Shown one piece after another: positions 10,129 through 10,894 of a stretch of 34,669 bases of DNA. Origin of the DNA: a virus. Taxonomy: Duplodnaviria > Heunggongvirae > Uroviricota > Caudoviricetes. The DNA lies in IMG/VR virus record IMGVR_UViG_2872158770_000004, one strand, 5' to 3'. Under the pieces are notes generated by a model. The model searched no databases and was not told the DNA's origin. It saw only the letters and a program-made list of their open reading frames with translations. Every line of letters begins with the position of its first letter. Position 1 is the first letter of the stretch. The translations under genes and the position numbers were made by a program.

Positions 10129-10158
10129 GCCTGCACAGTGTGCAGGCTTTCTTTTTTT
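10129..10158 (+). terminator. GC-rich hairpin (GCCTGCAC-AGT-GTGCAGGC) followed by a T-run; terminator-like on the plus strand
   Basis: Perfect 8-bp stem, 3-nt loop, then TTTCTTTTTTT. Sits between the stop of gene 10158..10433(-) and the upstream end of the recE-position gene; which transcript it serves is unclear. Confidence 0.4.
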
Positions 10159-10433
10159 CAGATTTCACCTTTTAATTTCATTGCAATCAGAGTTGCCAGA
10201 AATTCGGCTTTTTTTTCTGCGGGCAGATTCTTTCCTATGTGCACCAGACACATTTTTTTTACACCATCGTTAAGTGTTTTAACGTTGCCTGATGGACCGT
10301 CGATATCAACCACAGTGAATGGGGTTTCTTTATTTTCTGTCTTAATCACGTAGCCAATACGCTTTCCTTCCAGATTAACCTCGTGAACAATGTCATCAGT
10401 AGTTACAACAGTGGCTTCATAACTGGTAATCAT
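10158..10433 (-). CDS. Hypothetical small phage protein (91 aa)
   Basis: ATG at 10433 preceded by AAGGAG with a 6-nt spacer; MITSYEATVVTTDDIVHEVN...; inside track ORF 10158..10481. Confidence 0.55.
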   Translation of the reverse strand: MITSYEATVVTTDDIVHEVNLEGKRIGYVIKTENKETPFTVVDIDGPSGNVKTLNDGVKKMCLVHIGKNLPAEKKAEFLATLIAMKLKGEI

Positions 10434-10517
10434 GTTTTTCTCCTTAATTAAGGTTGAGCGAACCCCTGCCATTGCTGGCATATAAGAATGAAACCGGATA
10501 TTTATTACGGAACTGTT

Positions 10518-10709
10518 TTAAAGACCTGCCGGGATTTCGTTATTATCATGGTGAATAACTTTATCGACCGGATAACAGTCACCGGGAATTTTCTGTTTCG
10601 CTGCGGCAGTCATACATTCTTTCATTGAGCTGTATACGCCAGTAACCATGTCAACCGGTTCACCGGAAACAAGAAAAACCGTCAGAACGAGTGCAAATAC
10701 TGTATTCAT
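10518..10709 (-). CDS. Small protein with an N-terminal signal-peptide-like hydrophobic segment (63 aa)
   Basis: MNTVFALVLTVFLVSGEPVD...; ATG at 10709 overlaps the upstream gene stop as ATGA; AAGGA RBS. Confidence 0.5.
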   Translation of the reverse strand: MNTVFALVLTVFLVSGEPVDMVTGVYSSMKECMTAAAKQKIPGDCYPVDKVIHHDNNEIPAGL

Positions 10710-10894
10710 TGTGCACATCCTTTTGGCATCAGACGTAAACGAGCCAGCATTGAAACAATGCATATTTTATTTAATAGCTCCCGTTCGTGTTTTCTCTTGT
10801 TAATGGCATCTTCAGTAAATACAGGGTTACTGATAGTGACACCAATTTCAAAACAACCTTCAGACGTATTAACGTTTGGTAATAACGTCTCCAT
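10706..10894 (-). CDS. Hypothetical small protein (62 aa)
   Basis: ATG at 10894 with GAGGA 7 nt upstream; stop overlaps the next start (ATGA), suggesting translational coupling. Confidence 0.5.
   Translation of the reverse strand: METLLPNVNTSEGCFEIGVTISNPVFTEDAINKRKHERELLNKICIVSMLARLRLMPKGCAQ

What the first reader, a model, noticed from the sequence alone, without database searches (positions are those of the whole stretch)
10158..10894. Three translationally coupled small genes, one with a signal-peptide-like N-terminus
Three minus-strand ORFs of 62, 63 and 91 aa each have a Shine-Dalgarno sequence, and the first two overlap as ATGA. The middle one (MNTVFALVLTVFLVSGEPVD...) looks exported. 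The block lies between the Rha-like regulator and the recE-position gene, where Rac-type prophages carry kil and superinfection-exclusion functions. None matches a family I recognise.
Basis: partly seen in the sequence, partly recalled or inferred. Interest (0 to 1): 0.5.

Follow-up and report, generated by a model that had tools for sequence, protein, structure and literature searches.

The report
Known prophage genes dicB, ydfD, racC
The three small genes are real but already well known: dicB (cell-division inhibitor that also blocks phage entry), ydfD (lysis protein) and racC (blocker of a retron defence toxin), joined here in an uncommon but ordinary prophage mosaic.

Summary
Three minus-strand ORFs of 62, 63 and 91 aa sit at 10158-10894, each with a Shine-Dalgarno sequence, and the first two overlap as ATGA. 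The third follows an 84-nt spacer, so only two are translationally coupled.

The claim that they match no known family is wrong.
- ORF1 is DicB: 60/62 identical to E. coli K-12 DicB, and Pfam and NCBIfam matches are well above their cut-offs.
- ORF2 is YdfD/DUF1482: 47/63 identical to the K-12 lysis protein.
- ORF3 is RacC: 88/91 identical to K-12 RacC.

All three have published functions. DicB inhibits division through MinC and ZipA and blocks ManYZ-dependent phage entry. YdfD inhibits IspG and causes lysis, which DicB counteracts. RacC blocks the retron toxin RcaT that RecE triggers.

The "exported" reading of ORF2 is not supported.

The only unusual point is the layout. A Qin-type dicB-ydfD cassette occupies the slot that kilR-ydaE holds in about 94% of the RacC loci surveyed. 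It is joined at a roughly 35-nt box shared by both prophage types.

The prophage is decayed. IS600 cuts recE at codon 11 and an IS630-family element separates the block from the immunity region.

Verdict: already known, low interest.

The parts
10706..10894 (-). dicB: 62-aa cell-division inhibitor DicB
   Evidence: Pfam PF05358 E 3.8e-40 over 1-62/62. NCBIfam NF049927 134.6 bits against a cut-off of 100. 60/62 identical to K-12 DicB. RefSeq annotates the same DNA as dicB.
10518..10709 (-). ydfD: 63-aa DUF1482 lysis protein, start overlapping the dicB stop (ATGA)
   Evidence: Pfam PF07358 E 7.7e-23. 47/63 identical and 54/63 similar to K-12 YdfD. Cys32 and Cys45, Asn2 and Leu63 are retained. 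The ATGA overlap is present in 79/79 loci.
10158..10433 (-). racC: 91-aa RacC, published blocker of the retron toxin RcaT
   Evidence: 88/91 identical to K-12 RacC. NCBIfam PRK09790 204 bits against a cut-off of 171. Phage records annotate it 'protein RacC'. The family is confined to Escherichia and Shigella.
10448..10482 (-). about 35-nt box shared by the Qin ydfD-ydfE spacer and the Rac ydaE-racC spacer; the joint between the dicB-ydfD module and the racC-recE module
   Evidence: BLAST matches to the two module types overlap at query positions 349-383. Three-way alignment with K-12 Qin and Rac.
10027..10058 (-). first 11 codons of recE (MSTDKQVYPLY), cut by IS600
   Evidence: Identical to the N-terminus of an intact 646-aa Exonuc_VIII gene in L007. 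The IS600 terminal sequence follows directly. The rest of recE lies at 7202-8794.
10905..11456 (-). Rha-family regulator gene ending 10 nt upstream of dicB (likely start 11456; the mechanical ORF extends to 11750)
   Evidence: Pfam Phage_pRha E 2.2e-31 and TIGR02681. Internal ATG with GGAGG upstream.
11511..11699 (-). C4 antisense RNA (11511-11598) and isrK RNA (11623-11699) upstream of rha, in the same transcription direction as the three genes
   Evidence: Rfam C4 79 bits (gathering score 45) and isrK 64.8 bits (gathering score 50).
11922..11972 (-). diverged DicF-like RNA with terminator stem, followed by the conserved K-12 dicF-dicB spacer
   Evidence: Rfam DicF 28.6 bits, below the gathering score of 48. 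Alignment to K-12 Qin.

Best explanation
The block is the distal part of the early-left (pL-type) operon of a decayed Rac-type lambdoid prophage, probably in Shigella. It holds three already characterised genes.

(1) dicB. DicB binds MinC and takes it to the septal ring through ZipA. This dismantles the FtsZ ring and the cells filament. The same DicB-MinC interaction inhibits the ManYZ inner-membrane channel, so lambda-like phages cannot inject their DNA.

(2) ydfD. It is translationally coupled to dicB through ATGA. YdfD binds and inhibits IspG in the MEP isoprenoid pathway. This starves envelope synthesis and lyses dividing cells. DicB, by stopping division, suppresses that lysis.

(3) racC. 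It sits immediately upstream of recE. RecE degrades retron msDNA and so triggers the retron toxin RcaT. RacC neutralises RcaT, so racC-recE is a blocker-trigger pair.

Shown here: the gene identities, the operon layout, the module joint and the IS damage. Inferred from 75-97% identity to the K-12 proteins that were tested: the functions.

In this copy recE is cut by IS600 at codon 11. An IS630-family element separates the block from the repressor-controlled promoter. Expression from the native promoter is therefore probably impaired (inference).
For: Identity:
- Searches give family matches.
- Searches give 97%, 75% and 97% identity to K-12 DicB, YdfD and RacC.
- Searches show RefSeq and phage records annotating the same DNA as dicB, DUF1482/YdfD and RacC.

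Layout:
- Searches show the SD sequences and the ATGA overlap.
- One search shows K-12 dicB-ydfD with the same 4-nt overlap.
- One search shows the K-12 Rac order kilR-ydaE-racC-recE.
- Searches show the recE stub, IS600 and the remainder of recE.
- Searches show the repressor, a ydfA-like gene and the IS630-family insertion upstream.

Conservation:
- RacC is followed by recE in 86 of 90 loci.
- DicB lies upstream of YdfD in at least 67 of 79 loci.

Functions, from the literature:
- DicB, MinC, ZipA and ManYZ: PMC6832061.
- YdfD-IspG and rescue by DicB: PMC8835842.
- RacC as the strongest RcaT blocker and RecE as the trigger: bioRxiv 10.1101/2020.06.22.160242.
- dicBF operon regulation by DicA, Rem and RNase III/E: PMC10448788.
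Against: - No function was tested on these alleles.
- YdfD is only 75% identical to the tested K-12 protein. The published work found that even single-residue truncations at either end abolish lysis (PMC8835842), so activity of this variant is not guaranteed, although Asn2 and Leu63 are kept.
- The DicF-like RNA upstream is below the Rfam threshold. The operon therefore differs from the K-12 dicBF operon.
- The isrK-C4-rha module lies between the DicF-like RNA and dicB, so regulation may differ.
- The IS630-family and IS600 insertions may silence the block or leave the genes without their partners.
Confidence: 0.93

Rival explanations
1. ORF2 (YdfD) is a secreted or periplasmic peptide. The hydrophobic N-terminus would be a cleavable Sec signal peptide, with possible cleavage after VSG. 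The mature peptide of about 47 aa would form a Cys32-Cys45 disulfide and act on the envelope from outside the cytoplasm.
For: - There is a hydrophobic run at residues 4-15 (KD 11-residue window 3.17).
- V-S-G at 14-16 fits the -3/-1 small-residue rule (read directly from the sequence).
- The two cysteines are invariant in 21 variants.
- The phenotype is envelope lysis (PMC8835842).
Against: - No Lys or Arg precedes the hydrophobic run in any of the 21 variants.
- In 13 of the 79 surveyed loci the run is only 9 residues long (FALVLTVFL-NT).
- Residues 1-28 are the part that binds cytoplasmic IspG in pull-downs.
- Lysis is rescued by ispG overexpression or by its product.
- Cysteine mutants still bind IspG (PMC8835842).
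- No signal-peptide predictor was available here.
Confidence: 0.1
2. The three ORFs form one new functional unit, for example a toxin, antidote and exclusion cassette specific to this prophage, rather than two independent modules placed next to each other by recombination.
For: - The genes are on the same strand and close together, with no terminator predicted between them on the minus strand.
- DicB does antagonise YdfD (PMC8835842).
- The same arrangement recurs in several NCBI assemblies (L007-L010).
Against: - racC is linked to recE, not to dicB-ydfD. Of 90 RacC loci, 85 have kilR plus ydaE upstream and only one has dicB-ydfD.
- Of 79 YdfD loci, only 4 are followed by racC and 66 are followed by ydfE.
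- The joint falls in a box shared by both prophage types, which is the signature of modular exchange.
Confidence: 0.05
3. The block consists of inert pseudogene remnants in a decaying prophage and has no current activity.
For: - There are five IS600 copies, three IS1-like copies and one IS630-family copy in 35 kb.
- recE is interrupted twice.
- The IS630-family element lies between the immunity region and the block.
- In related genomes dicB or racC are truncated or frameshifted (frameshifted RacC variants).
Against: - All three reading frames are intact with good SD sequences.
- The exact YdfD sequence recurs in 269 collection blocks.
- A promoter-like site (10/12 match) lies upstream of isrK at 11706-11734 on the same strand, but the region holds no more such sites than shuffled sequence does.
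Confidence: 0.25

Closest known systems
dicBF operon of the Qin cryptic prophage, E. coli K-12 (ydfABC-dicF-dicB-ydfD-ydfE)
   Same: - dicB is 97% identical and ydfD 75% identical.
- The ATGA overlap is the same.
- The same spacer lies downstream of dicF, and the same 26 nt with the SD lie upstream of dicB.
- A DUF1391 (ydfA-like) gene and an HTH repressor lie further upstream.
   Different: - An isrK-C4-rha module of about 860 nt sits between the dicF-like RNA and dicB.
- The DicF homologue is diverged and below the Rfam threshold.
- ydfD is followed by racC-recE instead of ydfE.
- The prophage carries Rac-type int, RalA and ydaT/ydaU-like genes; close relatives sit next to ttcA.
kilR-ydaE-racC-recE segment of the Rac cryptic prophage, E. 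coli K-12
   Same: - racC is 97% identical.
- It is followed by the same recE translation-start region and a hairpin in the spacer.
- It occupies the same position in the early-left operon.
- A division inhibitor with an overlapping small partner gene lies immediately upstream.
   Different: - The division-inhibitor cassette is dicB-ydfD rather than kilR-ydaE.
- The proteins show no detectable similarity.
- recE is of a different allelic type, is IS-disrupted and is followed by Gam plus AAA_24 rather than recT.
Lambda kil and other prophage FtsZ-ring inhibitors (own knowledge)
   Same: A small early-left-operon protein that blocks Z-ring formation during prophage induction.
   Different: DicB acts through MinC and ZipA, not directly on FtsZ (PMC6832061). 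Its family is different (PF05358).

Membership tests
DicB (Pfam PF05358 / NCBIfam NF049927) | Full-length match to the 62-position family profile above the curated cut-off | tested here: met
   135.8 bits against 27. 134.6 bits against 100. 60/62 identical to K-12 DicB.
DicB (Pfam PF05358 / NCBIfam NF049927) | Operon context: downstream of the dicF sRNA and overlapping ydfD | tested here: inconclusive
   The ydfD overlap is met. The DicF homologue scores only 28.6 bits against a gathering score of 48 and lies about 1 kb upstream, because isrK-C4-rha intervenes.
DicB (Pfam PF05358 / NCBIfam NF049927) | MinC-dependent division block and ManYZ inhibition | not testable with these tools
   Needs expression in minC+ and minC E156A hosts (PMC6832061).
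YdfD / DUF1482 (Pfam PF07358) | Profile match above the gathering score; about 63 aa; two conserved cysteines; intact Asn2 and Leu63 | tested here: met
   80.6 bits against 25. 47/63 identical to K-12 YdfD. Cys32 and Cys45 are invariant in 21 variants. The termini are intact.
YdfD / DUF1482 (Pfam PF07358) | Lysis on expression, IspG binding, rescue by DicB | not testable with these tools
   Published for the K-12 allele only (PMC8835842).
RacC (NCBIfam PRK09790, phrog_4778) | Full-length profile match above the cut-off and near-identity to K-12 RacC | tested here: met
   204.2 bits against 171. 88/91 identical. phrog_4778 E 9e-61.
RacC (NCBIfam PRK09790, phrog_4778) | Located immediately upstream of recE (blocker-trigger pair) | tested here: met
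   The recE start lies 99 nt downstream and its first 11 codons match an intact RecE, but the gene is cut by IS600. recE follows racC in 86/90 loci.
RacC (NCBIfam PRK09790, phrog_4778) | Neutralises the retron toxin RcaT | not testable with these tools
   Published for K-12 RacC (bioRxiv 10.1101/2020.06.22.160242).
Sec-type signal peptide (for ORF2) | Positively charged n-region before the hydrophobic core | tested here: not met
   There is no Lys or Arg in residues 1-29 of this protein. The first 20 residues of all 21 variants also lack them.
Sec-type signal peptide (for ORF2) | Hydrophobic core of 7-15 residues followed by a small -3/-1 cleavage motif | tested here: inconclusive
   The core FALVLTVFLV is followed by S-G, but some variants have FALVLTVFL-NT. 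No predictor was available.
KilR / YdaE (Rac kil cassette) | Sequence similarity to K-12 KilR or YdaE | tested here: not met
   No BLASTP alignment at E <= 100 for DicB against KilR or for YdfD against YdaE.
Known anti-phage defence systems (PADLOC) | Match to any PADLOC model | tested here: not met
   No hits for any of the three proteins.

The most novel reading that the evidence does not exclude
The Qin-type dicB-ydfD pair and the Rac-type kilR-ydaE pair may be interchangeable cassettes, each made of a division inhibitor and an overlapping small partner. They would be exchanged at a conserved box of about 35 nt in front of the next gene. If so, the uncharacterised partner YdaE could stand in the same division-dependent toxin/antidote relation to KilR that YdfD has to DicB. 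In addition, an intact racC left beside a destroyed recE could still disarm RcaT-type retron toxins of its host. The evidence here shows only the positional replacement and the shared joint. It shows no functional equivalence.
Probability: 0.15. Interest if true: 0.35.

Novelty: already known. Interest (0 to 1): 0.08.

Why it matters
It matters little beyond correct annotation. All three genes are named and experimentally studied in E. coli K-12. The arrangement is a routine example of lambdoid module shuffling, in which a Qin-type division-inhibitor and lysis cassette is placed in front of the Rac racC-recE pair. The modest value is as a documented case that unrelated division-inhibitor cassettes occupy the same slot. 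It is also a reminder that small prophage ORFs that look like orphans in raw sequence are often characterised host-takeover or anti-defence genes.

Tried and rejected
- **RacC structure.** The AlphaFold2 model (pLDDT 82, five strands and two helices) gave no significant fold match. The best PDB hit had E 0.2, to the generic OspA beta-meander. The best BFVD hit had E 2e-3, to uncharacterised phage proteins. No mechanistic insight was gained.
- **RacC against PDB sequences.** The hit to 6xi1 ('Flagellin hook IN motif family', E 1.6e-5) is the sum of four repeats of about 9 bits each. None is significant alone (i-Evalues 16-50). It was rejected as repeat-inflated.
- **PADLOC.** No hits for any of the proteins.
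- **Source genome.** An exact-match scan of genome contigs with the recE/IS600 junction found nothing. The source is inferred only from RacC being 100% identical to that of Shigella flexneri SFBU1023 and from the IS600 and IS1 load.
- **ydfD-racC spacer.** It is not unusually structured (z -0.2).
- **Literature.** The search for isrK, C4 and Rha returned nothing useful. The 2016 paper that first described YdfD lysis is not in the library.
- **A flaw.** My Rha query in that survey was out of frame, so its 'Rha' labels should be ignored.

Full report
**Observation**

The minus strand of 10158-10894 carries three ORFs:
- 10706-10894, 62 aa
- 10158-10433, 91 aa

Each start has a Shine-Dalgarno sequence at proper spacing: GAGGA 7 nt upstream, AAGGA 9 nt upstream and AAGGAG 6 nt upstream.

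ORF1 and ORF2 overlap as caATGAat. ORF3 starts 84 nt after the ORF2 stop. Only the first pair is therefore translationally coupled.

The Rha-family ORF ends 10 nt upstream of ORF1. A recE start codon lies 99 nt downstream of ORF3. The description is accurate apart from 'three coupled'.

**Identity**

ORF1 is DicB.
- Pfam DicB matches over 1-62/62, E 3.8e-40.
- NCBIfam 'cell division inhibition protein DicB' scores 134.6 bits against a cut-off of 100.
- It is 60/62 identical to E. coli K-12 DicB.

ORF2 is YdfD.
- Pfam DUF1482 matches at E 7.7e-23.
- It is 47/63 identical to K-12 YdfD, which RefSeq annotates as 'lysis protein'.

ORF3 is RacC.
- NCBIfam PRK09790 scores 204 bits against a cut-off of 171.
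- It is 88/91 identical to K-12 RacC.

RefSeq E. coli genomes and phage records annotate the same DNA as dicB, DUF1482/YdfD and RacC. DNA from the block, mainly its dicB-ydfD part, matches in 4543 of 5426 complete E. coli genomes.

**Context**

The window is a Rac-type prophage riddled with insertion sequences.
- It has five copies of the IS600 ORF pair and three copies of an IS1-like ORF pair.
- It has one IS630-family transposase gene at 12603-13634.

The order on the minus strand is:
1. HTH repressor, 14240-14659.
2. A ydfA/ydaF-like gene, 13779-13997.
3. The IS630-family element.
4. A plus-strand 98-aa ORF in the sieB position, 12146-12442.
5. A DicF-like RNA, 11922-11972 (28.6 bits, below the Rfam gathering score of 48).
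6. isrK, 11623-11699.
7. C4 antisense RNA, 11511-11598.
8. rha.
9. dicB, ydfD, racC.
10. An 11-codon recE stub (MSTDKQVYPLY), identical to the start of an intact 646-aa RecE in a related genome.
11. IS600, at roughly 8763-10026.
12. The rest of recE, 7202-8794.
13. A second IS600.
14. Gam, AAA_24 and the RalA sRNA.

These assignments rest.

RacC here is 100% identical to that of Shigella flexneri SFBU1023. Together with the IS load this suggests a Shigella source (inference).

**Mosaic structure**

Alignment with K-12 Qin shows three things.
- The dicF terminator and the dicF-dicB spacer are conserved at about 11770-11920.
- The 26 nt before dicB, including the SD, are conserved at 10895-10920.
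- The isrK-C4-rha segment of about 860 nt is absent from K-12 between those two stretches.

Downstream, the window follows Qin from the ydfD stop to a box at 10448-10482. From that same box onward it follows Rac (ydaE-racC spacer, racC, recE start). BLAST matches to the two module types overlap exactly there (query positions 349-383).

Surveys of related loci give the frequencies.
- Of 90 RacC-bearing loci, 85 have kilR plus ydaE upstream and one has dicB-ydfD.
- In 86 of those 90 loci recE follows racC.
- Of 79 YdfD-bearing viral contigs, all have the ATGA overlap and at least 67 have DicB directly upstream.
- In those 79, ydfE follows in 66, recE follows directly in 5 and racC follows in 4.

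The full rha-dicB-ydfD-racC arrangement recurs in several NCBI assemblies (L007-L010). No complete RefSeq E. coli genome covered the whole rha-to-racC query in one match; only two reached 80% coverage, and in the one inspected (L001) dicB is cut by IS1.

DicB and YdfD show no detectable similarity to KilR and YdaE. The layout is therefore a minority product of ordinary lambdoid module exchange. An unrelated cassette of division inhibitor plus small partner has been placed in the kilR-ydaE slot.

**Mechanism**

The functions are taken from the literature and inferred for these alleles.

DicB:
- It binds MinC, and the complex is targeted to the septal ring through ZipA.
- There it depolymerises FtsZ.
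- The same DicB-MinC interaction inhibits ManYZ.
- This gives about 100-fold resistance to lambda and other ManYZ-dependent phages and blocks mannose uptake (PMC6832061).

YdfD:
- It lyses cells on expression.
- DicB or SulA prevents the lysis.
- It binds IspG, mainly through residues 1-28.
- ispG overexpression or the IspG product rescues the cells.
- Both termini are needed for activity (PMC8835842).

RacC:
- It was the strongest blocker of the retron-Sen2 toxin RcaT in a genome-wide screen.
- RecE triggers that toxin by degrading msDNA.
- The authors call racC-recE a linked blocker-trigger pair (bioRxiv 10.1101/2020.06.22.160242).

Regulation of the K-12 dicBF operon:
- DicA represses it.
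- The antirepressor Rem derepresses it.
- RNase III and RNase E process it (PMC10448788).

Here the native promoter region is separated from the block by the IS630-family element. A promoter-like site upstream of isrK (TTGAAA-17-TATAGT, 11706-11734) is the nearest candidate. Whether the block is expressed is unknown.

**The 'exported' reading of ORF2**

- The N-terminus is hydrophobic.
- FALVLTVFL(V/N)(S/T)GEPVD is invariant across 21 variants.
- No basic residue precedes it.
- The hydrophobic run is 9-13 residues, too short for a transmembrane helix and atypical for a Sec signal.
- Published binding data place this segment on a cytoplasmic enzyme (PMC8835842).

I rate export at about 0.1. No signal-peptide predictor was available.

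**RacC structure**

The family is confined to Escherichia and Shigella prophages. An AlphaFold2 model (pLDDT 82, pTM 0.70) shows a five-stranded meander followed by a helical hairpin. No significant match was found in the PDB or BFVD. A PDB sequence hit (6xi1) is repeat-inflated and was rejected. This adds nothing to the published 'presumably binds RcaT'.

**Verdict**

The features are real, the genes are ordinary and already known, and the mosaic is uncommon but unremarkable. Interest is low.

Noticed in passing
window 11511-11750 (-): Rfam C4 antisense RNA (79 bits) and isrK (64.8 bits) lie inside the first 80 or so codons of the 281-aa 'Rha' ORF, which genome annotations call as one protein. 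The Pfam Phage_ASH match (aa 14-104) covers exactly these RNA genes. A likelier Rha start is the ATG at 11456 (GGAGG upstream, 183 aa). The Ash-like N-terminal extension may be a translated RNA locus.
   Followed up: partly
window 11770-11972 (-): A diverged DicF-like RNA scores 28.6 bits, below the Rfam gathering score of 48. Its terminator stem is kept and its 5' half has changed. It is followed by the conserved K-12 dicF-dicB spacer. Relative to K-12 Qin, an isrK-C4-rha module of about 860 nt separates it from dicB.
   Followed up: partly
window 10127-10159 (+): A strong intrinsic-terminator-like hairpin plus T-run lies on the plus strand, in the racC-recE spacer and antisense to the operon. 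It occurs in two allelic forms with a compensatory stem change across 90 loci (GCCTGCAC/GTGCAGGC and GCCTGCG/CGCAGGC). No plus-strand promoter was found. The fold z-score is -2.6. It could end an antisense RNA over the recE start, or act as a 3' stabiliser of racC mRNA.
   Followed up: partly
window 12146-12442 (+): A 98-aa ORF on the opposite strand occupies the position that sieB holds in K-12 Rac. It matches phrog_8894 (unknown function, E 4e-38) and has no Pfam or PADLOC match. It is a candidate moron or exclusion gene.
   Followed up: partly
window 10448-10482 (-): A box of about 35 nt is shared by the Qin ydfD-ydfE and Rac ydaE-racC spacers. It contains a 5-bp hairpin, TGCCA-GCAA-TGGCA (GAAA loop in Rac). 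It serves as the module joint. The region is not unusually stable (z -0.2).
   Followed up: partly
window 535-1691, 6021-7177, 8806-9962, 17810-18966, 31448-32604; 19185-19882, 22701-23398, 33045-33742; 12603-13634: There are five copies of the IS600 ORF pair, three copies of an IS1-like ORF pair and one IS630-family transposase in 35 kb. recE is interrupted twice and the integrase is truncated. This is typical of Shigella-style genome decay.
   Followed up: partly
window 4160-5797: The RalA antitoxin sRNA is present (207 bits). Gam (PF06064) and an AAA_24 ATPase lie where K-12 Rac carries recT. This is a different recombination module paired with a divergent RecE allele.
   Followed up: no
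window 22269-22443 (+) and 25419-25726 (+): A sok antitoxin RNA (118 bits), indicating a hok/sok locus, and a cluster of four tRNA genes lie in the late region of the prophage.
   Followed up: no
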